Position numbers and translations under genes: made by a program. This document shows positions 4,598 through 34,437 of a stretch of 64,000 nt of DNA, one piece after another. The first letter of the stretch is position 1. Each line of letters opens with the position of its first letter. The stretch comes from an uncultured Prevotella sp. (lineage in GTDB: Bacteria > Bacteroidota > Bacteroidia > Bacteroidales > Bacteroidaceae). The notes under the pieces are model-generated. The model did not search any database. It saw only the letters and a list, made by a program, of their open reading frames with translations, and was not told the DNA's origin. The stretch is taken from positions 14,131-78,130 of the forward strand of contig CAZGAT010000010.1 of the NCBI GenBank assembly GCA_964523825.1, read 5' to 3'.

Positions 4598-6289
4598 TTA
4601 GTTTATCGGGGTGAATGTGATACAGTCTATCTGGATACTGAAGTTCTGGTTGGAACTTGCGGCTGGATCCATGATAACCATATTGAACTGGTGGTTGGCA
4701 GTCTGGTCGAACTCTACCTCATCGTAAATGGTAGACGTGTAAACTCCCGGCATCGCACTCGGCACCTTAGTATATGGAGAGGCAAAAGTGGTGTATTTGT
4801 CATTATCGTCAAATCCGAGTTTTAACAGTCCTCCATTACCTGATGTCTGCTGACGCATGAAGCTGTGGTTAGTCAAATATACTATCGACATCTCAACCTT
4901 ATACTTTCCACGTACCAGTGTCGGTGTGCGCATTGAAACAGAACCCATATACCCGAGGTTGAACACCACGCGATCCAAGTTGTACGCAGTCTTATGGGTG
5001 TTCTTGCAAGTCACATAGTCGATATCACTGTAACTGCGGTTCTTAGTTCCCGACTCACCCATCTCGTAAGTGAAGCATGAAGCCTGTGATATACGGTACC
5101 TCTGTTCTGTCGTTGTCGGTTCTGAAGGCTGATAGTATTCCGTTGGAACCAAATCGCGTATACTGCTGTTGTCTGCCAAATCCCAGACTACGGTTGTCTG
5201 CTCTGGTTCCCATACAGGAAGCCAACTATCGAGTTGGCAAACATATCCGTTCTTGGCCTTTTGCTCACCACTGACGACAAAATGCGCCTTCGTACCGTTG
5301 GCATTCAGCGTAAGCTGTTCTGCTGTATCGGTTGTCAGCGAGTCATACTGCAACGCTATCACCTGGTTGGAAGCGCGGGTATCTATAAGTGACGATACAG
5401 TGCCAGACGAACTCATGCTGTTGACAAGTGCCTCACGGTTGTTGGTGAGTATATGGTAACCCACGAACTCCTTTACAAGAGAGTCGGTAGTGATGTCTTC
5501 TCTGGAATTCTCCTGAAGCTTCGCGATTAGGTCGCTATAGTTGCTGATGCCAACTTGCGCGAAAGTCTGGTCGGTGACGTTAAGCAATGTGTTGTTATAC
5601 GTCTTTATAATACGTCCGCCGTCCTCGTCGGTCAGCGTATCACGCAGAGTCTGCAACTCATGGGCGTATCCCGAAGCGTCAATGGCTTGAAGCATGATTG
5701 ACGAATTGCCACCTTCGCTCAAACGGTCATATATGGACTCCACAAGAGGTGTCATTGCCTTGCTGAGGACATATATCTTGCCATTTGAAGCACTTACTCC
5801 CATCTGTACTATATGACCATCACCGATGCCAGCCTCACCTGCATTCTCTGTGTCGATAGTTATAGGAAGGACATCGTCGCTAAGGTTCGTAACAGTCTTC
5901 ATATTGACGAACTCTTCCGCAAGGATAGAATCCGACACCGTATGGTACAGCACGAACTGTCGCGCATATTCCTTAGTCATTTCAGTATACGAACTGATGC
6001 CACGCTGCTGGTAGAAAGCCTGCATAGCCTCGTTCGTTGGCACGAACGCAGTGAAGCTCGTGCCATTGGAACTCTGGTTGAGGGCATTGAACAAGTCGGC
6101 ATACCGCAATATCCCCGCATATTCGGAGAAGTCTTCCTGACTTTCAAGATACGTGCTTATAGGCGTACCAAGCTCGTCGGCATACGAACCCTTGTAATTG
6201 TCGGAACCGAAGTCAAAGACATCTGAACCGCAACCAGTCAGTCCGAAAGCAGCCACTGCCATTATGAATAATAAATATATCTTTTTCAT
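4598..6289 (-). CDS. Fasciclin (FAS1) domain lipoprotein
   Basis: 563 aa. Lipobox AAFGLTGC. FAS1 signatures FTAFVPTNEAMQAFY and NGKIYVLSKAMTP. Confidence 0.8.
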   Translation of the reverse strand: MKKIYLLFIMAVAAFGLTGCGSDVFDFGSDNYKGSYADELGTPISTYLESQEDFSEYAGILRYADLFNALNQSSNGTSFTAFVPTNEAMQAFYQQRGISSYTEMTKEYARQFVLYHTVSDSILAEEFVNMKTVTNLSDDVLPITIDTENAGEAGIGDGHIVQMGVSASNGKIYVLSKAMTPLVESIYDRLSEGGNSSIMLQAIDASGYAHELQTLRDTLTDEDGGRIIKTYNNTLLNVTDQTFAQVGISNYSDLIAKLQENSREDITTDSLVKEFVGYHILTNNREALVNSMSSSGTVSSLIDTRASNQVIALQYDSLTTDTAEQLTLNANGTKAHFVVSGEQKAKNGYVCQLDSWLPVWEPEQTTVVWDLADNSSIRDLVPTEYYQPSEPTTTEQRYRISQASCFTYEMGESGTKNRSYSDIDYVTCKNTHKTAYNLDRVVFNLGYMGSVSMRTPTLVRGKYKVEMSIVYLTNHSFMRQQTSGNGGLLKLGFDDNDKYTTFASPYTKVPSAMPGVYTSTIYDEVEFDQTANHQFNMVIMDPAASSNQNFSIQIDCITFTPIN

Positions 6290-7925: not shown

Positions 7926-10900
7926 TTAGAAATTGACGGTTAGACCTAAAGCGAAACGCTTTGATACGGGAGTCGTAGCATTGTCCTTGACAAGGCTTGT
8001 TGCTGACGGCAACTTGACCTCAGGGTCTTGTCCCTTGTAGTTAGTCCATGTGAAGAGGTCATAACCAGTAGCGAATACGTTTACCGTGTTTATTCCACAA
8101 TGCAGCTTGGCAAGCAATGCCTTAGGTACGTTCCAACTCAAGGAAAGGGTCTTGAGACGTACGAAAGTAGCATCCTCTACAAAACGGTCACTACCAAGGT
8201 AGTTGTATCCCATACCATAGAGCGCGCGTGGAATATCGGTATCATCACCCTCGTGAGTCCAACGGTTCAAGACAGCCGTGCTCTGGTTAGATGTTCCATA
8301 CATGCTCTCCAAGCTCATACGTGCTCCGTTGATGACCTTCTGACCGAAACGTCCATAGAAGAACGTAGTGAGCGTAAGGCTCTTCCAACGTATCTGGAAG
8401 CCACCGCCACCAGAGAACTTCGGGTTGGCGTTGCCAAGATACACTATGTCGTTCTCGTTGATGACACCATCATGGTTTACATCTTCATATTTGGCATCAC
8501 CAGGATATGTAAGCGTCGTTCCGTTACGCATAACGATAGGACGACCGCTAAAGTCGTTCATCACGTTGCCGTCGGCATCACGCGCATATGTATCTTCGGT
8601 ATTCTGGTATACGCCCTTGTAGCGGTAGCCGTAGAACGCTCCTACTGGCGCGCCCTCGATGATACGAAGTGCATAGTTTCCATTGCCGAACGAATAGTTG
8701 TCGAGACGCCAGCTGCTTGGCAACTCATCCACCTGATTGATGTTGCGGCTCATGTTGGCATTGAGCGTAATGGTCCAATCCTTGTTCTTGAAGGCGGTAT
8801 AGTCGAAACGCAACTCAAATCCCCTGTTGCTCATACGACCAGAGTTGAAGTACTTGATAGAACCGAATCCTGTCGTTGACGGCAGAGAATAGTCTGACAG
8901 CAGCAAGTCCTTGGTCTTCTTGTCATAGTAGTCGAACGTTATGCCGAGCTTGTCCCAGAAACGGAGGTCTACACCGAGGTCGAACTCGCGCGATGTCTCC
9001 CACTTCAAGTTGTCAAGCTGCATACGTGACGGATATATCGCGCTCATATCCATATACTGTCCGAGACTGGTATACGCGCCATAGTAGAGAGAAGCTCCTG
9101 ACGGCGAGTTGCCCGACCAACCGTAGCCGAGACGAAGCTTTGCCTCTGACAGCCATTTCTTGGTTGCCTCGCTCCAGAAGTGTTCCTGATCTATATTCCA
9201 TGCAACACCGAATGCCGGGAAAGTAGCCCAACGGTTGTCACGTCCCATAGACGAGTTACCTGTGTGGTTGATGGTGGCACGTGCCACATAACGGTTGTCA
9301 AATGTATATACAGCCTGTCCTATCATCTCGATGCTACGGGTCTCGCTGTTGCCAGAACCCGATGAAGACACGACACTACCGACAACAGGGTCAGACAGAT
9401 GTTCCGAGGCATTGCCATAGGTGGAACTCGTAGAGCTGTAGCTCTGCGACATCTTGGAACGGAACAGAGCGGTAGCGATAAGGCTGTGCTTCTTGGCAAA
9501 AGTATGGTTGTAGATAAACTTTCCCTCTGTGCGCAGCGAGAATGCATCCGAAGTAGCATCGGTAGACAGGTTGGCAAGGCTGCTCGTCCACAATACGCCG
9601 GTAGCCGTCTGGGGAAGGAACTTCGTGTTCTTGTTGGTACGCATGTTCATAGAAACGTAGCCTTGGAAACGAAGGTCAAACGGGAAGTCATAGTCGAGCG
9701 AGATTGTCAGCTTCTCCTCGCGCGAGGTCGTATTGTTGTAACTGTCGTTGACCATAGCCACAGGGTTGTACTGAGTACTCTTGCCGGAGTAGGAACCCTG
9801 GAAGTTTGACTCTGGAGTGAAATATACTCCTGTACTCTCACCAGTCGTCTGATCAATCCAATACGGGCTCATGTTCGGCATACGCTGCTGCGCTATCGAA
9901 CGGGTCGTATCCCAATAGTTGGCTTCCTTCTTCGTATTGGTGAAACTAAAGTCCGTGTGTACACGCAGACGGTCGGAGAACTTATAGTTGATCTTCATCG
10001 ACGTAGACAGACGGTCAAGTCCTGTTCCACGTGTCGTACCCTGCTCGTCGTAATATCCGAGGTTGAATATATAGGTAGCCTTTTCACCGCCACCCTTCAT
10101 ACTGAAGTTGTTGTCGGTGACTACGGCGTGCTGCTTGACGGCATCGAGCCAGTCGGTATTTACATTATATTCATCGAAATAGCGATAGTCTGGATCATAA
10201 CCGATTTCAGGACTGTTGAACAGCATGTTCATTTCATTGGTAGCGTTCATCACGCCCTTGGCATTGGCTGCGTTCCACAACTCGTCCTGCATAAGCGAGA
10301 CGTACTGTGTTCCATTGAGCAAAGGAATGGACTTCGGCTCAAACTTCGTCGTGAACTTCGACGAGAACGTGAAGTTGGTCTTTCCGGCAGTACCGTTCTT
10401 GGTAGTGATAAGCAATACGCCGTTGGCACCCTTCGTACCATATATGGCTGTTGCCGATGCGTCCTTGAGCACCTCGATGCTCTGGATATTAGAAGGTGTA
10501 ATGTTCAGAAGTGCTCCGAAATCCTCCTCATTGGCGGTAGCGAAGTTGAAATCCTCGCTGATGTCGGTATCGTACGGAACGCCGTCGATGACGATAAGCG
10601 GCTCGGTGTTGGCACTAAGTGTATTGGTACCACGGATACGTATCGAGCTACGCGCGCCAGGGTCACCACCAAGCGTGATGTCAAGTCCGGCAATCTGTCC
10701 TTGCAGTGCCTCCTCGATAGAGCCGACAGGCGACTCTTCCACAATCTTAGTCATATCGATACGCTGGACGGCTGATGTCTGCTCCAGTCTCGATATACCC
10801 ATACCGTCGGTACGGCGACCAACGACAGTAACCTCGTCAAGGTCGTGAGAATCGTCCGACGACAGTACGACATCAAGATGTGTCTGCCCAGTATATTTAT

Positions 10901-28215: not shown

Positions 28216-28917
28216 TCAGATAAGCCGTCCGCCGAAGATAACGTCCTTTATCTTCTGTTCGTGGTCGAAGATGAAGTTGGATACGATGCTCGAAAGTATG
28301 GCTGCGGTCGGGAGGCGCACGCTGGTAGCCGTCTTCAATCTGTCGAGGACGTTCTTCAAATCGCCGTCTATATAGATGGTGGCAAGCTTGGAGTCGCGCG
28401 TCTTGTAGTCATGGCCTATCTGCATGAAACGCTCCCAACTGTCGCCGCCATTGTCCTTGATAGCGCGATAGTCACGCTCGGCACGCTCTGTCGGAGTGAT
28501 GGAGTCGCGCTTGTTTGCAGGCCGTCCGGGACGGGCTGTGCGTGCAGGCGCGGGTGTCGGAGCGGCATATTGCTGATATGCCGGCTCTGGACGGTCAGTA
28601 GCCTGCGCCTCGGACGCTACTACCCCACCCTGCTGTTCTTCCGGTTCTGCGTATACATGTTCCTTTTTTGTCGCCGGTTCCGCGTGAGACGCGGCTGAAT
28701 CGGCTGTCGCGGTAGCAGCCGTCGCGGTCGTCGCCGGTGCCGGAGCAGCCTCTACGCTGTTGTCTTCTTTCGCTTCTTCAGCAACGTTACCATTATTGTC
28801 TTCCTTGCTGGCAGGCTCTCCCCCACCCTTCTGTACTTGATGAACTAATCCTGCAATACCGCCAGGAAGCACTACGCTTGTCTTTATTTTCTTTTTAGCC
28901 ATTATGTTTGTTTGCAT
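28216..28917 (-). CDS. DUF3408-like protein (the type encoded next to traA in Bacteroides conjugative transposons), with a low-complexity A/T/P/E-rich middle
   Basis: 233 aa. The C-terminal pattern ATIYIDGDLKNVLDRLKTATSVRLPTAAILSSIVSNFIFDHEQKIKDVI matches my memory of the DUF3408 core. Alternative start MAKKKIK at 28902. Confidence 0.6.
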   Translation of the reverse strand: MQTNIMAKKKIKTSVVLPGGIAGLVHQVQKGGGEPASKEDNNGNVAEEAKEDNSVEAAPAPATTATAATATADSAASHAEPATKKEHVYAEPEEQQGGVVASEAQATDRPEPAYQQYAAPTPAPARTARPGRPANKRDSITPTERAERDYRAIKDNGGDSWERFMQIGHDYKTRDSKLATIYIDGDLKNVLDRLKTATSVRLPTAAILSSIVSNFIFDHEQKIKDVIFGGRLI

Positions 28918-29066: not shown

Positions 29067-29732
29067 TTATTTCATCCGCTTTATCATATAATCGAAACTG
29101 TCGCTTACCGCGTCACGCTGTGTGGCGAGAAGCTCGAAAGTATTGATGCGTTTGAGGGTCGCACGGCTCGCTATGCGTGGTGTGACATTCCCTATCTGCT
29201 TGAAAATCTCGTCGGTTTGTTTCCACATACGGTTCTCATCGCTCGTTCCAATACGCGCGTCTATACGGTTGGGAACGAAGAACAGTTGCGCTTTCATGTC
29301 GGGATATTGCCCGCGGATCGCATTAATCACCTGGACGAACACGCCCGTAGAGTCAAGTGTCTTGTCCTCGTACTCGTATGGGCAAACGATATAGTCGGCA
29401 TTGGTGAACATCGGAACCAAGCCGTCTTCAGAGACGTTACCCGGGGAGTCAAACAATACGTAGCCCTCGACCTGACGAGCCGAATCCATGAGTTGCTGCA
29501 TGGTGTCGGGGTCGGTGACGTCGAAATCCTGCACTGTATAAGGTTCTTCGTCATCAAAGACTTCGGCATCCTTGCGCCTCTGCATAGAGATTGTTTTCTG
29601 CAAGTCTGTATCTATGATGCATACAGGCTTGCGCTTCATAGTAAGGTAATTGGCAAACAGCATACAAAGGGTTGACTTACCTACCCCACCCTTCTGATTG
29701 GCAAATACTACAATTCTATTCTTCATAGCCAT
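29067..29732 (-). CDS. ParA/Soj-family P-loop ATPase (TraA-like of Bacteroides mobile elements)
   Basis: 221 aa. Deviant Walker A: VVFANQKGGVGKSTLCMLFANYL. Confidence 0.88.
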   Translation of the reverse strand: MAMKNRIVVFANQKGGVGKSTLCMLFANYLTMKRKPVCIIDTDLQKTISMQRRKDAEVFDDEEPYTVQDFDVTDPDTMQQLMDSARQVEGYVLFDSPGNVSEDGLVPMFTNADYIVCPYEYEDKTLDSTGVFVQVINAIRGQYPDMKAQLFFVPNRIDARIGTSDENRMWKQTDEIFKQIGNVTPRIASRATLKRINTFELLATQRDAVSDSFDYMIKRMK

Positions 29733-29914: not shown

Positions 29915-30598
29915 TCATTCTAAATGCCCTCCGCCAACCTTCATTGTCCGCCCGAGGAATATTGTTGGAAGTACATTAAGTATCCATTTGAGAACGGAAA
30001 CGATACACGGAACAGTCCCTGCCCCGGTTAGCATATTTGCGCTGTAAGCCGAAATATAGGCAACATCAAGCGTCCCACCTACTATTGGACAAAGGAACAA
30101 AGACAGTCCCAGCGCACGCAAACGCCCTCGAGTCGTTATAGCTAACACTATTCCAAACAAGAACAGGATAATATTCAAAAGATAGCCACTAACGATACCT
30201 ATACGGTGTGTAACCGACAGCTCCACAGGCTGATTCAATGAATCCACCACAGAAGTGCCGTTTGGAATATCCTTCAGCAAGCCCATGATAACGAGGGTAA
30301 TAATGGCAAGGACCACATAACTTAACATCGATTTAGAGATAGAAAGCTGCCGCCTAATAAGTTCCCACACAACGACCAAACTCCCAGTAGAGAATATAGC
30401 AAGCAGCATTTTCCCCACACTACTCCCAATCAAATGGCGAAATCCAGGCAAGGAAGCCCCATCTGTAACACCTGACAAAGTAATAAACTCTGGCAACATA
30501 GCTACAAAGTTCAAGCCCACGAATAGGGATATTGCCCACATGATCACCTTATGTTCTCTGTCAGATATATCGAAACTATATAACTTCTTACTATTCAT
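29915..30598 (-). CDS. Hypothetical multi-pass (about 6 TM) membrane protein
   Basis: 227 aa with several long hydrophobic stretches (WAISLFVGLNFVAML, MLLAIFSTGSLVVVW, YVVLAIITLVIMGLL, GYLLNIILFLFGIVLAI ...). No family recognised. Confidence 0.6.
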   Translation of the reverse strand: MNSKKLYSFDISDREHKVIMWAISLFVGLNFVAMLPEFITLSGVTDGASLPGFRHLIGSSVGKMLLAIFSTGSLVVVWELIRRQLSISKSMLSYVVLAIITLVIMGLLKDIPNGTSVVDSLNQPVELSVTHRIGIVSGYLLNIILFLFGIVLAITTRGRLRALGLSLFLCPIVGGTLDVAYISAYSANMLTGAGTVPCIVSVLKWILNVLPTIFLGRTMKVGGGHLE

Positions 30599-30639
30599 AA
30601 ATATCTATTAATCAATTGTTTATAATATTTTATATATTT

Positions 30640-31200
30640 ATCCTTTTACTTATTTAATTGCAACAGCATTGCGATAAGAGTATATTTCCCCGATGTCTAA
30701 TAAATACATTCAATCATATACATATTCAAGTACAAACATATTTGCACGTGCAAATTTAACCATAAAGAATCAAACATACAACAAAGCAAACAAACTTTTA
30801 AATACAAATACAAAAGAATATGAAAAGTAATAAATACAAAAACATACAAACAAAAGCCTTTAAAAACATACATTTATCGATATACACAAATAAGCAAATA
30901 TAAATATTTAAACATAAAACTATATAAACTTATAAAGTCATACAAATATCAAAATACAAATATATGAATTCACTTAATTAATAATACTTAAACACAAAAC
31001 TATATTTATATCTAAACTTATAACAATAAATCATCAAACAAATATAGATATAAAAACATACTATAATATTAATACATAATAATTAAAAGACAAAGATATA
31101 CATATCGACAATATTAAACAACTATACATTTCTAAAAATAAAAACAGATAGAATTATTTATATATAAAATTGTAATATGATAAAGTTGCGAGCAAATACA
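30640..31200 (+). other. Extremely AT-rich, strand-asymmetric (A/C-rich, G-depleted) low-complexity tract with no ORF
   Basis: Hand count for 30901-31140: 6 G versus 30 C in 240 nt (about 15% GC). Internal direct repeat TTAAACA(T/C)AAAACTATAT at 30908-30925 and 30988-31005. Confidence 0.85.
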
Positions 31201-31597
31201 AAGTTAATCAAATATTCTGTAAAACAGTATGCCCTGTATTGCTTATTATCAAGAAAATCTTTTGCTGTTTAAACTTGGAGAAAATGCAAACCATATGTGA
31301 ATAAAAATTATAGTTGATAAATAATTTTAACTTCCAAACAGATGCATACGAAAAAGACACCTGTTGGAAAATGTTTACAGTAACACACTATAACAAATAA
31401 AAATAGTACGGTAATGAATAGGATAGGGGAGACCCTCAAAGAAACTAATAATGCAAATACTAAAAGTGCTCGCAATTATTAAACATAGAAAATATGTCGA
31501 ACTCACAACATAGGTAAAGCGTCGATTAAGAATAAGTATACCATGAATGGCATTACACCAACCAACAACAACAATAACATTGCAACTAAGAACAGAA

Positions 31598-32241
31598 GCG
31601 ACAATGGCGACAAAAAAGGAACTTTATATCATTATACACAAACCAGACATCCAAGACAAGCGGAAAATGATTCGATTAAAGTAAATTAAAGCACTGATAA
31701 TCAAGTATAATAGATAATATCCTAAAGTAGAACGGCGACAAAAAAGTGAAAAATGAAGTTTACTATAAAGTAAAAATAGAACTAAATCGAAACAAAATAT
31801 TAAAAAACAATAATATAAATCAATAAATTATATAATATGACATGATAAAAATATAAATAACAGAAGGAAACTGCCATAGGACTTAGAGTCAGCAATAAAG
31901 CATATGAGATCATAAGATCAGTTGAATAACAAAATACCACTTAATCTGCTATATACTAGATAGATACAAGCAGATAGCGACAAATAGGGAATATAATAGT
32001 TCAGAAAAAAGTATCTAACTCCAAATGTAGAGAGACCAGGTTATATAAACACCTGCCATTTTCGAACTAAAGAAATAGCAGCGACAAATAAGGAACAAGT
32101 TTCCAGCTATACAATGCTTTCTTTGATGAGACTATATGTAACATATTTATTATAAGGGATTTATAACCCATATAACACTGAATGTCGACAGATAGGGAAA
32201 CTAATACATAATAAATCTTTTGCTAACGACAAAAAGGGAAC
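31598..32241 (+). repeat. Dispersed copies of the GCGACAAAnAGGGA-type site, all in one orientation
   Basis: GACA cores at 31600, 31609, 31737, 31979, 32083, 32187 and 32228. Examples: GGCGACAAAAAAGGAAC, ATAGCGACAAATAGGGAAT, GCGACAAATAAGGAAC, GTCGACAGATAGGGAAAC, ACGACAAAAAGGGAAC. Confidence 0.8.
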
Positions 32242-32672
32242 ATATAACGCATATACAAAATAGGATTTATAAAGTAAATAAGAATACCTTATAAGGGTGA
32301 AGAAAACAGATGATGTGGCAACAGCTTTCTACTTTGATTGATATTTTATTACAAATAATGAAATATACAATTGCAAAATCAAAGATATAATAGAAACAAA
32401 AATAACAACCATTTTGTGAAATATAGAATAAGAGGAAAAGTATATGCCGGAATATATATAAAAAGTAAGTAAACTTAGCTAAGTATATGTGGCTGGAAGC
32501 TTCTTATATAGACTTAAAAGTAGTCTATGGGATTAATTCTCGAATATCAAAATATTAATTCCTAAAACAAAAAAATTAAATCTCGAATTAGATATCATTA
32601 TTTAATCTATTGTATAAGACTTATTTAGGAAGTCATAATTTACTGTAAGATAGAGTGTTATGGGTTAGTTGG

Positions 32673-32808
32673 GCGACATTTTAGTAAGTTTGCGCCGACA
32701 AATTTGTAGGTTTAATGAGACAATAGGGGAGGGTTACGTCGACAAATTTGTAGGTATTGGTTAGATTACGTCGACAAATTTGTAGGTTTGATGCGACAAT
32801 GAGGGAGC
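32673..32808 (+). repeat. Left array: six GCGACA-type sites at 22-bp phasing
   Basis: GACA cores at 32675, 32697, 32719, 32741, 32773 and 32795, i.e. steps of 22,22,22,32,22. CGACAAATTTGTAGGT occurs exactly 3 times (32696, 32740, 32772). Confidence 0.9.
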
Positions 32809-32958
32809 AAAGGGCTTGTTTGCTTCTTATTTTTTGATAAAATTAGATGTTTATTATACCATAAACTGATTTATCTTTTTTAATATCAATCGTATCGGTT
32901 CACAAAATATAAAGCTTTAACCATTATAATATATTGATATACAATAGTTTGTATTTGT

Positions 32959-33020
32959 GTCGACAAATTTGTAACTTCTTTAGTATATTCAAATAATTAA
33001 CAAAACGACAAAAAAGGAAA
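32959..33020 (+). repeat. Two further same-orientation sites inside the unit
   Basis: GTCGACAAATTTGTAAC (32959-32975) and ACGACAAAAAAGGAAA (33005-33020). Confidence 0.75.
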
Positions 33021-33119
33021 TTGCTCGTAATTTATTACGTTAGATGATTAATCTATTGAATTATACAAAATTAATAATGTAATTAAGCTGTAATACTGCT
33101 GTGTTCAAAATTAAATTCT

Positions 33120-33127
33120 TAATTTTG
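33120..33127 (+). promoter_or_regulatory. Candidate -7 box TAATTTTG for the glutaredoxin-like gene
   Basis: Exact TAnnTTTG match, about 65 nt upstream of the ATG at 33192. Confidence 0.45.
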
Positions 33128-33191
33128 CCAATACATATACTGTGGCATATCGTATATGTAATGTATTTATAAATAGATAAAGCTGTTGGTT

Positions 33192-33488
33192 ATGATTAAA
33201 ATTTATGGAATGCCGACATGTCCGTATTGTTCGTATGTCTATAAACAAGTTGAAGGCGATAAAAGATTCAAAATTATAGATATAGGAAGCGACGTGCATC
33301 GTATGAGCAAGTTTATTAGTATGCGTGATACGTCACCTGTGTTCGATCATTCTAAAGCTGTTGGAGATATAGGGATACCATGTTTTGTATGTGAAGATGG
33401 AACTATAACGTTAAAGCCAGAGGAAGTAGGATTGATGGAATATACGGGGCAAGGAGCCTCATGTGCTATTGATGGCAGCGGTTGTTGA
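33192..33488 (+). CDS. Glutaredoxin-related small thiol-disulfide protein (CPYC motif; NrdH/COG4545-like)
   Basis: ORF track 33186..33488. I prefer the start MIKIYGMPTCPYCSYV. Thioredoxin-fold pattern ..GIPCFVCEDGTITL.., C-terminal Cys-rich tail. Confidence 0.75.
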   Translation: MIKIYGMPTCPYCSYVYKQVEGDKRFKIIDIGSDVHRMSKFISMRDTSPVFDHSKAVGDIGIPCFVCEDGTITLKPEEVGLMEYTGQGASCAIDGSGC

Positions 33489-33565
33489 TAACTTATTGAT
33501 GTAGCAATGGTTATACGGTAGAGTAGGGGGGGGACCTGGCTTTGTAATTATTTTGGAAGAAGCTA

Positions 33566-33906
33566 CCTGTTTGTCGTTCTTTGTTGAATGATATTTTGTT
33601 GATACCTCCCTTTTTGTCGCTGTCTGTAATAATGCTTTTTATTTAGGGCAAGTTCGGCGACAAAAAAGTGTAAAAAACAGTTAAAGCTGTTGTCGCGTAA
33701 CTATTTTTTTCTCTTCACATGTCTGTTATATGAATATATTGTAAAGTTATTATCATAAATAACGGTCGTTTACAGTTAGAATGGCTGGCAATATTCCCAT
33801 TATGTCGTACATAGATAGTTAGATGCTCCCTATCTGTCATCATAATGTTCCTCAACCGTTACTAAGTAGCTCCCTATTTGTCGCTATTAACTTACTATAA
33901 TGTCGC
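33566..33906 (-). repeat. Right array: seven sites of the same family in the opposite orientation
   Basis: Plus-strand TGTC cores at 33901, 33879, 33835 and 33803 (steps 22,44,32), then 33691, 33615 and 33572. Examples: TCCCTATTTGTCGCTAT, TCCCTATCTGTC, TCCCTTTTTGTCGC. Confidence 0.85.
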
Positions 33907-34395
33907 TTCCAATAATTGTTATATCCTTATATTCAGATGGTTAAATGGTTCTAAATAATATCTAACCAATGATTTAAACTAAAGATTAATCAACTTTTGA
34001 TGCTTTTGTCTCCGCATAAGATAAGGAGCATCGACAATCACTGCCAATGCTCCCAATAGTCCTTTTTCCCGATTGATTAAGAACCAATGTCTGGACTAAA
34101 TTCGCTTTTCGTTTTTCAGTAATTCAAAATAATCATTGTTTCTAAAAGTCCTACGGTCTTGCTTTGTTCTGTACATTATTAAAGGCACGCTTGCCTATAA
34201 CTTTCATAGACCAATGGAACTCAATAGAGAGCTTAATACGTTTAACATGTTTTTTATAAGTAGAGGCTTAGGCATTTCTTTCGATGGCAAATATAGTTCT
34301 TTTTTGATAAGGTTGTTCTCTTTAAACATACAATTTCACGTAAACGTTTACGTATGCTGTTATGTTGATTAACAGTTTGGTGTAGTGTATTAAAA

Positions 34396-34437
34396 ATAGA
34401 GAAGCCTTTCTAATTCTATGTTAGAAAGGCTTCTCTA
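34396..34437 (-). terminator. Hairpin terminator just downstream of the AraC/RhaR-like gene
   Basis: ATAGAGAAGCCTTTCTAA (34396-34413) pairs with TTAGAAAGGCTTCTCTAT (34421-34438), with a 7-nt loop. Confidence 0.7.

What the first reader, a model, noticed from the sequence alone, without database searches (positions are those of the whole stretch)
32673..33906. 1.2-kb unit with 31-bp inverted termini and 22-bp-phased GCGACAAAT-type site arrays, carrying only a glutaredoxin-like gene
Seen:
- 32673-32703 is GCGACATTTTAGTAAGTTTGCGCCGACAAAT. The reverse complement of 33876-33906 is GCGACATTATAGTAAGTTAATAGCGACAAAT. They are identical at 25/31 positions (17/18 at the outer end).
- Behind the left terminus, GACA cores start at 32675, 32697, 32719, 32741, 32773 and 32795. 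The steps are 22,22,22,32,22 bp, all in one orientation, and three copies of CGACAAATTTGTAGGT are exact.
- Behind the right terminus the same site type is inverted. TGTC cores lie at 33901, 33879, 33835 and 33803 (steps 22,44,32), then at 33691, 33615 and 33572.
- Between the arrays lies only a 100-aa CPYC glutaredoxin-like gene with its own TAATTTTG -7 box, plus a G8 run (33526-33533).

Established: inward-facing subterminal transposase-binding repeats at both ends typify Tn7/Mu/Tn402-class DDE transposons. Two-turn-phased (22 bp) repeats flanking a small gene also typify iteron-controlled plasmid origins and incompatibility loci.

From memory only, not verified: the site (GACAAATAGGGAnC) resembles the GACAAAATAG..GGAAC TnsB-binding repeats of Tn7 ends.

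Inference: this is a non-autonomous mini-element mobilised in trans, or the relic of a replicon. Its cognate binding protein is not encoded in this window.
Basis: partly seen in the sequence, partly recalled or inferred. Interest (0 to 1): 0.8.

Follow-up and report, generated by a model that had tools for sequence, protein, structure and literature searches.

The report
Iteron origin array, not a transposon
The supposed 1.2-kb mini-transposon is one stretch of a larger array of initiator-binding repeats (iterons) found across the Prevotella family beside a ParA partition operon, and it is most likely a plasmid-style replication origin whose initiator gene lies elsewhere in the genome.

Summary
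The sequence facts are correct: the 25/31 inverted match, three exact CGACAAATTTGTAGGT copies, the 22-bp steps and a glutaredoxin-related gene. The "unit" is not real. The 25/31 match is reached by 6% of local shuffles. Sites of the same type continue about 1.1 kb further left. A related species has the orthologous locus with no break at either "terminus".

The real feature is a roughly 2.3-kb array of about 20 sites, consensus GCGACAAATAGGGAAnAT. It lies in a 3.8-kb AT-rich, almost gene-free gap beside a membrane-protein–ParA–DUF3408 operon. About 70 Prevotellaceae genomes carry the same motif arrays. In 35 loci the sites point away from parA, with spacings of 21/22, 31 and 44/45 bp.

The same motif forms 22-bp-phased arrays directly beside Rep_3 initiator genes:
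- Prevotella plasmid pE2-28 (CGCCACAAATAGGGAAC)
- a Rodentibacter contig (CGACAAATTTGTAG)
- one viral-collection contig
- mini-F, which shares the GACAAAT core

Prevotella genomes keep a conserved Rep_3 gene 0.3–0.4 Mb from the array.

Best reading: Rep_3-type iterons of a chromid-type or chromosome-embedded origin and copy-control locus with a partition cassette and the initiator acting in trans. The transposon reading is rejected.

The parts
28216..28917 (-). DUF3408-family protein (233 aa). It has a conserved basic N-terminal peptide (MAxKKKTSVVLPGGIAGLVHQVQ), a disordered linker and a conserved C-terminal domain of about 85 aa. It is the presumed ParA partner (adaptor or centromere-binding protein).
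   Evidence: Homologues carry PF11888. Alignment A2 shows the three-part layout and an invariant LATIYID stretch. The AF2 monomer is low-confidence, with coil-helix-helix in the C-terminal domain. No PDB relative was found by sequence.
29067..29732 (-). Small Walker-type ParA ATPase (221 aa, no N-terminal HTH), 72-86% identical across Prevotellaceae.
   Evidence: Pfam CbiA/AAA_31/MipZ and NCBIfam ParA_partition. tblastn hits occur in about 40 array-bearing blocks. It is 78.6% identical to the ParA of the second chromosome of P. nigrescens.
29915..30598 (-). Six-TM membrane protein, first gene of the parA operon in this lineage. It is accessory: present in only a subset of loci.
   Evidence: ORF and hydropathy survey of 36 loci. 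No family hit.
30599..31590 (.). Spacer of 24% GC, A/C-rich and G-poor on the + strand, poorly conserved. It is a candidate DNA-unwinding region and also carries the promoter of the parA operon.
   Evidence: Composition (GC 0.236-0.24, GC skew -0.39). Alignment with L010.
31598..32243 (+). Dispersed iteron-type sites outside the finding. CGACA starts at 31599, 31608, 31978, 32082, 32186 and 32227 (GCGACAAAWAGGGAAC type) and 31736 (GGCGACAAAAAAGTGAAAAAT type).
   Evidence: They are conserved as footprints in the related species.
32673..32810 (+). Phased iteron array of six sites at 22, 22, 22, 32 and 22 bp. Subtypes are GCGACATTTTAGTAAGTT, CGACAAATTTGTAGGT (three copies) and GAGACAATAGGGGAGG / GCGACAATGAGGGAGC.
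   Evidence: Conserved in L002. The 14-mer CGACAAATTTGTAG is identical to the iterons beside a Rep_3 gene in L097.
32960..33022 (+). Two further sites (32961 CGACAAATTTGTAACT; 33006 CGACAAAAAAGGAAAT) upstream of the glutaredoxin-related gene. The second lies in a block of about 35 nt that is nearly identical (one mismatch) in L002.
33192..33488 (+). Glutaredoxin-related protein (98 aa, CPYC) with its own TAnnTTTG promoter box. It is a lineage-specific passenger inside the array, not part of the system.
   Evidence: It belongs to a real family. Elsewhere it sits in ordinary redox gene clusters without arrays. It is absent from all other array loci.
33560..33906 (-). Distal group of sites in inverted orientation (33576, 33619, 33695, 33807, 33839, 33883, 33905), plus one + strand GGCGACAAAAAAGTGTAAAAAAC site at 33656-33678.
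   Evidence: Conserved in L002, including a 25-nt identical block around 33656. A comparable inverted distal group is present in P. nigrescens.

Best explanation
**What it is.** The finding is the middle part of a roughly 2.3-kb array (31.6-33.9 kb) of about 20 iterons. Iterons are 17-18-bp binding sites for a Rep_3-family (RepE/RepB-like, winged-helix) replication initiator. The consensus is GCGACAAATAGGGAAnAT, with GCGACAAATTTGTAGG / ...TTAGTAAC subtypes. The array lies in a 3.8-kb AT-rich, nearly gene-free gap next to a membrane-protein–ParA–DUF3408 partition-type operon.

**How it probably works.**
- Rep_3 monomers, made from a gene elsewhere in the genome, bind the helically phased sites cooperatively on one face of the DNA.
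- They open the adjacent AT-rich DNA to start replication.
- The many extra and inverted sites titrate or pair ('handcuff') the initiator for copy control, as incB/incC do in F or incA does in P1.
- The adjacent ParA and its DUF3408 partner segregate this region.

Together these form the plasmid-type origin and maintenance module of a Prevotellaceae secondary chromosome, or of such a replicon embedded in a single chromosome.

**Shown here.**
- The sites are real, enriched, phased and conserved.
- They are linked to ParA–DUF3408 across the family.
- The same motif arrays lie beside Rep_3 genes in other replicons.
- Rep_3 is conserved in Prevotella genomes.

**Inferred.**
- That Rep_3 binds these sites.
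- That replication starts here.
- That ParA–DUF3408 partitions this locus.
For: **1. The array is real.** There are 24 CGACA against 1.9 expected. 16 + strand sites (15 left of the small gene, plus 33658) face 8 - strand cores (5 right of it).

**2. It is a conserved host feature.**
- The orthologous locus of a related species keeps the sites while the spacers diverge.
- A strict two-site pattern hits 90 blocks of the genome collection, about 70 of them Prevotellaceae.
- ParA (72-86% identity) and DUF3408 are in the same 8-kb block in about 40.

**3. Geometry in 35 loci.**
- 345 of 423 sites point away from parA.
- Spacings are quantised: 21/22 bp (80 cases), 31 bp (21), 44/45 bp (43) and 53-55 bp (10).

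**4. The same motif lies beside Rep_3 genes.**
- Prevotella sp. E2-28 plasmid pE2-28 has ParA, then 10 sites of CGCCACAAATAGGGAAC / CGCCACAAATTAGTAAC at 22 bp, then a Rep_3 gene. That is 15/16 identical to the window consensus. It has no DUF3408 homologue nearby.
- L097 (Rodentibacter) has 4 x ACGACAAATTTGTAGTC at 22 bp upstream of a Rep_3 gene.
- L123 has 7 x GCGACAAATCGGGAAT at 21-22 bp upstream of a gene with Pfam Rep3_N and Rep3_C.
- A B. fragilis plasmid has 7 x AGGGACAAAAACCCAAC next to its Rep_3 gene.
- The mini-F iterons TGTGACAAATTGCCCT share the GACAAAT core.

**5. A trans initiator exists.**
- The second chromosome of P. nigrescens encodes a Rep_3 protein.
- Its homologues are 79-91% identical in other Prevotella species.
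- In P. ihumii, rep and the array lie on one 3.15-Mb scaffold about 383 kb apart.

**6. On the 568-kb second chromosome of P. nigrescens.**
- The array is the single densest CGACAAA cluster.
- No DnaA-box cluster exists anywhere on it.
- Genes diverge at the array.
- The cumulative GC-skew minimum is broad, at about 200-240 kb; the array is at 187.6-189.8 kb.
- The 11-mer GGCGACAAAAA occurs four times: twice in the array, once over the -33 region of the rep promoter, and once in rpsA.
Against: - No Rep_3 gene or remnant is in the 64-kb window. Its presence in this genome is therefore assumed from relatives.
- In Prevotella genomes rep lies 0.3-0.4 Mb from the array. That is atypical for iteron replicons, where rep is adjacent.
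- The rep promoter of P. ihumii shows no obvious CGACA site.
- GC skew does not change sign at the locus within the window.
- On the second chromosome of P. nigrescens the skew is weak, its minimum is about 35 kb from the array, and gene orientation is complex. Origin firing is not demonstrated.
- No DnaA boxes accompany the array.
- Single-chromosome species also carry the locus. There it would be a second origin, or silent.
- No binding data exist. Adjacency alone would equally fit DUF3408 as the binder.
Confidence: 0.7

Rival explanations
1. The array is a centromere. The sites are bound by the adjacent DUF3408 protein, a possible ribbon-helix-helix adaptor. That protein's basic N-terminal peptide activates ParA. 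This would be a type Ib-like partition locus with an unusually large, regional centromere, and it would have nothing to do with initiation.
For: - Arrays and the ParA–DUF3408 operon are adjacent in about 40 blocks, with a fixed relative orientation.
- DUF3408 has a conserved Lys-rich N-terminal peptide and a C-terminal strand-helix-helix-like pattern with an invariant LATIYID stretch.
- The invariant CGACAAAT core would fit such an invariant reading element.
- Helical phasing also suits partition complexes.
Against: - The same motif arrays lie beside Rep_3 genes in replicons that have no detectable DUF3408 homologue. pE2-28 was tested. L097, L123 and mini-F were not tested for DUF3408.
- The DUF3408 fold is unproven: AF2 pLDDT is 52 and there is no PDB relative.
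- In type Ib systems the centromere usually overlaps the parA promoter. Here most sites lie 1-5 kb away.
Confidence: 0.13
2. The array is a decayed remnant of an integrated plasmid or conjugative element. The iterons and the ParA–DUF3408 genes were left behind, rep was lost or is unrelated, and the locus has no present function.
For: - The nearest non-Prevotella relatives of this ParA are TraA-like first genes of conjugative tra operons on Bacteroides plasmids.
- GC content is far below the genome average.
- A passenger gene sits inside the array.
Against: - Sites are conserved as footprints while the spacers diverge.
- ParA is 72-86% identical across genera, and the DUF3408 termini are conserved.
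- One array with fixed orientation and phasing recurs in about 70 species.
- Rep_3 is 79-91% conserved.
- Neutral relics do not persist like this.
Confidence: 0.08
3. The segment is a non-autonomous transposon (Tn7/Mu/Tn402-like) or an invertible segment bounded by the 31-bp inverted repeats.
For: - There is an inverted 25/31 match.
- Sub-terminal sites face inward.
- The distal site group is inverted relative to L014, so an ancient inversion is plausible.
Against: - The inverted match is within chance.
- Sites continue outside the repeats.
- The orthologue aligns through both ends.
- There are no other copies, target duplications, transposase or recombinase in the window.
- The motif always forms one locus next to parA.
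Confidence: 0.03

Closest known systems
Mini-F ori2: incB iterons – repE – incC iterons (RepE, Rep_3 family)
   Same: - Iterons of 17-19 bp with a GACAAAT core.
- The four ori2 iterons printed in PMC10706280 Appendix A lie 21, 33 and 22 bp apart.
- An AT-rich region lies beside the iterons.
- From my own knowledge, not tested here: a second iteron group flanks the central gene for copy control, and the sopABC partition genes lie nearby.
   Different: - Here the gene between the site groups is a glutaredoxin-related passenger, not rep.
- rep is unlinked, 0.3-0.4 Mb away in relatives.
- There are about 20 sites over 2.3 kb rather than 4 + 5.
- No DnaA boxes are present.
- The partition partner is DUF3408, not a ParB/SopB protein.
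Prevotella sp. E2-28 plasmid pE2-28 (NZ_CP091789.1): ParA – iterons – Rep_3
   Same: - Nearly the same iteron sequence (CGCCACAAATAGGGAAC and CGCCACAAATTAGTAAC, against GCGACAAATAGGGAAC and ...TTAGTAAC).
- 22-bp phasing.
- A second, dispersed site family.
- A parA gene alongside.
- Its Rep_3 is 42% identical to the chromosomal Prevotella Rep_3.
   Different: - In pE2-28, rep is immediately adjacent to the iterons.
- The core is CCACA rather than CGACA.
- Its ParA is only distantly related, and no DUF3408 homologue was detected.
- The record annotates only the genes. The iterons were identified here.
Vibrio cholerae chromosome 2 origin (RctB, 11/12-mers and 39-mers, parAB2)
   Same: Works like it (from general knowledge). 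It is a chromid origin of plasmid ancestry with many initiator sites for both firing and negative control. It has its own par genes next to the origin and sits on a replicon that carries core genes.
   Different: - The initiator family is unrelated (RctB rather than Rep_3).
- rctB is adjacent to ori2.
- Control by Dam methylation and crtS has not been examined here.
Type Ib partition cassettes (ParF/ParG of TP228, delta/omega of pSM19035) and VirC1/VirC2
   Same: A small ParA without an HTH, followed by a small protein with a basic flexible N-terminus and a possible ribbon-helix-helix C-terminal domain.
   Different: - The DUF3408 fold is unproven.
- Its binding sites are unknown.
- The repeat array matches Rep_3 iterons rather than any known centromere.
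Tn7 / Tn7-like transposon ends (TnsB sites)
   Same: Only the short GACAA core and the idea of multiple sub-terminal sites of about 20 bp.
   Different: There are no tns genes, no 5'-TGT ends, no target duplication and no discrete boundaries. The locus is single and syntenic.

Membership tests
Iteron-type (Rep_3 / RepE-like) replication origin | Several direct repeats of 17-22 bp at spacings of about 22 bp (whole helical turns) | tested here: met
   The window shows steps of 22, 22, 22, 32 and 22 bp. In 35 loci the spacings cluster at 21/22, 31, 44/45 and 53-55 bp.
Iteron-type (Rep_3 / RepE-like) replication origin | Repeat sequence of the kind bound by Rep_3 initiators (the same motif found beside Rep_3 genes) | tested here: met
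   pE2-28 matches the consensus at 15/16. L097 carries the identical 14-mer CGACAAATTTGTAG. L123 has GCGACAAATCGGGAAT. Mini-F shares the GACAAAT core. This is similarity to iterons, not a binding assay.
Iteron-type (Rep_3 / RepE-like) replication origin | Cognate initiator gene adjacent to the iterons | tested here: not met
   There is no Rep_3 gene or remnant in the window. In P. nigrescens rep is about 310 kb from the array, and in P. ihumii about 383 kb.
Iteron-type (Rep_3 / RepE-like) replication origin | Cognate initiator encoded in the same genome | not testable with these tools
   Only 64 kb of this genome is held. Relatives encode a Rep_3 that is 79-91% conserved.
Iteron-type (Rep_3 / RepE-like) replication origin | AT-rich unwinding region next to the iterons | tested here: inconclusive
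   DNA of 24-29% GC flanks the array in a genome of about 50% GC. Unwinding itself cannot be tested.
Iteron-type (Rep_3 / RepE-like) replication origin | Replication actually starts here (skew or coverage switch) | tested here: inconclusive
   On the second chromosome of P. nigrescens, genes diverge at the array and the weak cumulative-skew minimum lies about 35 kb away. There is no sign change within the window. No coverage data are available.
Type Ib ParA / centromere-binding-protein partition cassette | Small deviant Walker-A ParA without an N-terminal DNA-binding domain | tested here: met
   The protein is 221 aa. It hits CbiA/AAA_31/MipZ and NCBIfam ParA_partition at 1e-18, which is below the curated cut-off.
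Type Ib ParA / centromere-binding-protein partition cassette | Downstream small dimeric ribbon-helix-helix protein with a ParA-activating N-terminal peptide | tested here: inconclusive
   The N-terminal peptide is conserved and the C-terminal domain has a strand-helix-helix-like pattern. AF2 pLDDT is 52. No PDB or Pfam RHH match was found.
Type Ib ParA / centromere-binding-protein partition cassette | Repeats bound by that protein at or near the parA promoter | not tested
   No shared motif other than AT-rich words and the promoter box was found within 300 bp upstream of parA. No binding data exist.
Tn7/Mu/Tn402-type transposon or MITE | Terminal inverted repeats beyond chance that delimit the element | tested here: not met
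   12 of 200 shuffles reach 25/31. Sites extend beyond the 'ends'.
Tn7/Mu/Tn402-type transposon or MITE | Presence/absence polymorphism, target-site duplication, multiple copies, or association with a transposase | tested here: not met
   The orthologue aligns through both ends. The motif forms arrays found beside parA in about 40 blocks, not dispersed copies. No transposase is in the window.
DnaA-dependent chromosomal oriC | Cluster of DnaA boxes (TTATCCACA-like) | tested here: not met
   There is no cluster in the window, in 100+ related loci, or anywhere on the second chromosome of P. nigrescens.

The most novel reading that the evidence does not exclude
This locus may be the long-sought origin of the Prevotella second chromosome, which Naito et al. 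2016 stated to be unknown. It would be an iteron origin fired by a Rep_3 initiator encoded hundreds of kilobases away. The same module, consisting of a trans Rep_3, about 10-25 iterons and ParA–DUF3408, also sits inside the single chromosome of other Prevotellaceae. There it would act as a latent or second origin. That pre-adapts the lineage to repeated chromosome splitting and fusion.
Probability: 0.35. Interest if true: 0.7.

Novelty: new variant of a known kind. Interest (0 to 1): 0.55.

Why it matters
**Practical value.**
- It removes a false transposon call.
- It replaces that call with a conserved, unannotated cis-element that can be recognised by a simple motif and spacing rule in Prevotellaceae genomes and MAGs.

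**If the origin reading is right.**
- It answers an explicit open point in the literature. The replication origin of the second chromosome in the P. intermedia group was described as unknown, with no iterons or maintenance genes near its Rep_3 gene (PMC4755523).
- It gives a testable candidate set: origin, initiator and partition genes.
- It is an unusual natural case of an iteron replicon whose initiator is unlinked.
- It bears on how Prevotella alternates between one and two chromosomes.
- It could supply parts (origin, rep, par) for much-needed Prevotella/Segatella vectors.
- It could improve growth-rate (peak-to-trough) estimates from metagenomes.

Tried and rejected
- **RNA explanations.** Rfam at E<=1 over 28-36 kb gave only two sub-threshold chance hits. 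There are no tRNAs in the window.
- **DnaA-type oriC.** No box clusters were found.
- **Exact-protein look-ups** for the glutaredoxin and DUF3408 genes failed. The source genome is not among the genome-scan hits.
- **BLASTN** of the 2.45-kb array against plasmids gave no match. The similarity is at motif level only.
- **Viral-collection scan**.
  - Four of the seven hits are low-complexity repeats in long ORFs (chance).
  - Two are host array DNA in viral-collection contigs.
  - Only L123 was informative.
- **DUF3408 structure.**
  - The AF2 monomer was too poor (pLDDT 52) to justify a fold search.
  - PDB profile and Pfam searches gave nothing.
- **A conserved operator for the parA operon.**
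  - The palindrome TTTGCACGTGCAAA is lineage-specific.
  - The k-mer survey upstream of parA found only AT-rich words and the promoter box.
- **Rep remnants in the AT-rich gap.** None were found.
- **Autoregulatory site at the rep promoter.** It is present in P. nigrescens but not evident in P. ihumii.
- **Origin/terminus placement** by GC skew and gene strand on the second chromosome of P. nigrescens was only suggestive.
- **Replication fork trap (opposed Ter-like sites)** was considered and dropped. Some lineages (L014) have almost all sites in one orientation.
- **Literature.** I found no description of these arrays.
Full report
**1. The observation**

All sequence statements in the finding are correct.
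- The arms 32673-32703 and 33876-33906 are 81% complementary, 25/31.
- CGACAAATTTGTAGGT is exact at 32696, 32740 and 32772, with a 2-mismatch copy at 32961. Shuffles give 0.58 matches on average.
- The CGACA/GACA cores lie where stated, with steps of 22, 22, 22, 32 and 22 bp on the left and in inverted orientation on the right.

- The inverted match is not remarkable on its own. 12 of 200 dinucleotide-preserving shuffles of the local 1.8 kb contain an inverted 31-mer pair at least as good.
- The sites do not stop at 32673. The same motif is on the + strand at 31599, 31608, 31736, 31978, 32082, 32186 and 32227.

Over 31500-33950 there are 24 CGACA cores, against 1.9 expected and at most 8 in 500 shuffles. 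Of the non-coding CpG in that stretch, 21 of 46 sit in this motif. The real object is therefore a roughly 2.3-kb site array, not a 1.2-kb unit.

**2. Setting**

- The array lies in a 3.8-kb stretch (30.6-34.4 kb) of 24-34% GC, in a window that is otherwise about 45-60% GC.
- The only convincing gene in that stretch is the 98-aa glutaredoxin-related gene.
- To the left, transcribed away from the array, are three genes:
  - a 6-TM membrane protein (29915-30598)
  - a small ParA (29067-29732)
  - a 233-aa protein (28216-28917) whose homologues carry PF11888 (DUF3408)
- The rest of the window holds ordinary chromosomal genes: polysaccharide-utilisation loci, rhamnose catabolism, an RND pump, asparagine synthase and glutamate synthase.
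- There is no transposase, recombinase or rep gene.

**3. Not a mobile insertion**

- Metagenome contigs from a related species cover the same locus. Its glutaredoxin is 89% identical and its ParA-side genes about 80%.
- The alignment runs straight through both supposed termini. The CGACA sites are conserved in place, spacer DNA diverges, and conservation continues on both sides.
- The glutaredoxin-related protein belongs to a real family.
  - In other genomes it sits in ordinary redox clusters without arrays.
  - It is absent from every other array locus.
  - It is a passenger.

**4. A feature of the whole family**

- A strict two-site pattern, CGACAAATNNGKAR-N(2-32)-CGACAAATNNGKAR, found 90 blocks among 185,579 species genomes.
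  - About 70 are Prevotellaceae (Prevotella, Hallella, Hoylesella).
  - They include chromosome 2 of P. histicola.
- In about 40 of these 8-kb blocks the same ParA (72-86% identity) and DUF3408 (29-62%) are present.
- Longer contigs show the locus among housekeeping genes.
  - One is a 521-kb contig with about 22 copies of GCGACAAATAGGGAAGAT.
  - Another sits next to a tRNA gene that phages and integrases use for integration.
- Across 35 loci:
  - 345 of 423 sites within 6 kb upstream of parA point away from it.
  - The consensus is (T/G)GCGACAAATAGGGAAnAT.
  - Spacings are quantised: 21/22 bp (80 cases), 31 bp (21), 44/45 bp (43) and 53-55 bp (10). These are close to whole helical turns.

**5. 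What the sites are**

The decisive evidence came from replicons where the same motif lies beside an initiator gene.
- **L123**, a 27% GC viral-collection contig, has seven GCGACAAATCGGGAAT repeats at 21-22 bp. They are directly upstream of a gene with Pfam Rep3_N (6e-17) and Rep3_C (9e-17).
- **L097**, a 4.2-kb Rodentibacter contig, has four ACGACAAATTTGTAGTC repeats at 22 bp upstream of a Rep_3 gene. The 14-mer is identical to the window's exact repeat.
- **pE2-28**, a 205-kb Prevotella plasmid, has ParA, then ten 22-bp-phased repeats, then a Rep_3 gene.
  - The repeats' reverse complements read CGCCACAAATAGGGAAC, CGCCACAAATTAGTAAC and CGCCACAAAAAGGGAAC.
  - They match the window consensus at 15/16 and show the same two alternating subtypes as the chromosomal arrays.
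  - Its Rep_3 is 42% identical to the chromosomal Prevotella Rep_3.
  - No DUF3408 homologue is detectable in the 19-kb pE2-28 region examined, so the motif tracks Rep_3, not DUF3408.
- **A B. fragilis plasmid** has seven AGGGACAAAAACCCAAC repeats at 22 bp next to its Rep_3 gene.
- **Mini-F ori2**, as printed in PMC10706280 Appendix A, shows TGTGACAAATTGCCCT iterons at 21-, 33- and 22-bp steps before repE. Identifying these elements as the RepE iterons rests on my own knowledge.

The sites are therefore Rep_3-type iterons.

**6. The initiator in trans**

- The complete 567,798-bp replicon of P. nigrescens is labelled 'plasmid unnamed'. Its size and core-gene content match the small second chromosome described for the P. 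intermedia group. It carries the ParA–DUF3408 locus at 183-186 kb and the array at 187.6-189.8 kb.
- The array is the single densest CGACAAA cluster on that replicon. No DnaA-box cluster exists anywhere on it.
- Its annotated 'replication initiation protein' at 496.7-497.9 kb has the Rep_3 WH1 and WH2 domains.
- Homologues of that protein are 79-91% identical in P. ihumii, P. brunnea, P. dentasini and P. corporis.
- In P. ihumii, rep and the array lie about 383 kb apart on one 3.15-Mb scaffold.
- In P. nigrescens the 11-mer GGCGACAAAAA occurs four times in 568 kb:
  - twice in the array
  - once over the -33 region of the rep promoter, which looks like an autoregulatory site
  - once in rpsA
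- In P. ihumii no such promoter site is evident.
- Genes diverge at the P. nigrescens array. About 85 kb of mostly - strand genes lie to its left and + strand genes to its right.
- The weak cumulative GC skew has a broad minimum at 200-240 kb and a maximum at 500-546 kb. That places the array near the skew minimum, not the maximum. This is suggestive only.

**7. The partition side**

- The DUF3408 protein has three parts:
  - a conserved basic N-terminal peptide, like ParA-activating tails
  - a variable disordered linker
  - a conserved C-terminal domain with a strand-helix-helix-like pattern and an invariant LATIYID stretch
- The AF2 monomer was too poor to use. No solved or Pfam RHH relative was found.
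- The nearest non-Prevotella relatives of this ParA open conjugative tra operons on Bacteroides plasmids.
- I treat ParA–DUF3408 as a type Ib-like partition pair by analogy. Its own binding sites remain unknown.

**8. Proposed mechanism**

- Rep_3, made in trans, loads cooperatively on the phased iterons and melts the neighbouring AT-rich DNA.
- The dispersed and inverted iterons act as copy-control (titration or pairing) sites.
- ParA–DUF3408 segregates the region.
- Shown here: array reality, conservation and geometry; the link to ParA–DUF3408; the same motif beside Rep_3 genes; a conserved Rep_3 in Prevotella.
- Inferred: binding, firing and partition.

**9. Rivals**

- A DUF3408-bound centromere (0.13) is weakened by pE2-28 and the other Rep_3 replicons.
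- A functionless relic (0.08) is contradicted by the conservation.
- A transposon or inverton (0.03) is contradicted.

**10. Comparison with what is known, and novelty**

- Functionally this is an iteron origin with a par cassette, as in F, P1 or Vibrio chromosome 2.
- It differs in four ways:
  - rep is unlinked
  - the number and spread of iterons is large
  - there are no DnaA boxes
  - it is also present in apparently single-chromosome species
- Naito et al. 2016 (PMC4755523) reported a Rep_3 gene on the second chromosome of P. intermedia, 'no iteron-like repeats' or maintenance genes near it, and an unknown origin.
- Later surveys treat the Prevotella secondary replicons as chromosome-like.
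- I found no description of these arrays in the searchable literature.
- I rate it a new variant of a known kind.

**11. Limits**

- Only 64 kb of this genome is held.
- No binding or replication data exist.
- Motif identity is strong circumstantial evidence, not proof.
- The skew and strand tests on one replicon are weak.

Noticed in passing
window 30741-30754: A perfect 14-bp palindrome, TTTGCACGTGCAAA, lies about 145 bp upstream of the membrane-protein gene that heads the parA operon. It is conserved in the related species (L010) and a similar one occurs in P. nigrescens, but it is absent from most other loci. It may be a lineage-specific operator.
   Followed up: partly
window 30600-31200: There is extreme strand asymmetry: on the + strand the DNA is A/C-rich and almost G-free (GC 0.24, GC skew -0.39). 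It consists of ACAAA/ATACA-like low-complexity sequence that is poorly conserved in the relative.
   Followed up: partly
window 28657-28679 (- strand): A full iteron-like site, GGCGACAAAAAAGGAAC, identical to the one at 31606, lies inside the coding sequence of the DUF3408 protein's disordered linker. L123 likewise has an iteron inside its rep gene.
   Followed up: no
window 34000-34437: Blocks to the right of the array are conserved between species. They include a TATATTTG promoter box on the - strand near 34291, a hairpin at 34019-34050, and a small - strand ORF. The ORF's amino-acid similarity to the relative continues across a 4-nt indel (KENN.I.KE.YLP.KEM.KPLLIKN, then HVKRIKLSI in another frame). 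This could be a frameshifted small gene or an sRNA. There was no Rfam hit.
   Followed up: partly
L016 4543-4630 and L017 (same position): A tRNA gene lies immediately beside the array. Two strains carry different insertions at it: phage lysis genes with a reverse transcriptase in one, and an integrase in the other. This explains why many metagenome contigs of this locus break at the same point and are about 6.1 kb long.
   Followed up: yes
L133 (pE2-28) 5100-6240 and 8085-8790: pE2-28 has two further repeat families. About 20 copies of TTTATTAAAG-containing 23-bp units lie upstream of its parA operon and may be a centromere. About 11 dispersed GCGGAACAAAA(A/T)AGGAACA sites lie between the iterons and rep.
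   Followed up: no
L038/L067, L045/L083, L029/L076, L034/L050, L078/L085, L043/L101, L093/L103: Several genomes or MAGs have two array-bearing loci. In UBA6447 both have ParA–DUF3408. In one MAG the two lie about 24 kb apart on the same contig. Whether this means one locus per replicon, duplication or strain mixture is unknown.
   Followed up: no
L025, L051, L063, L068, L091, L107: Bins labelled Oscillospiraceae, Lachnospiraceae, Eggerthellaceae or simply 'bacterium' carry contigs with the array. Most also have the Prevotella-type ParA (72-75% identity). These contigs look misbinned.
   Followed up: no
L112 / NZ_CP082843.1 174,773-174,860: On the second chromosome of P. nigrescens, an inverted pair of GCGACAAAAA sites 77 bp apart forms a small extra cluster about 13 kb from the main array. 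It lies between a repressor gene and a hypothetical gene.
   Followed up: no
It lies just downstream of the glutaredoxin stop codon.
   Followed up: yes
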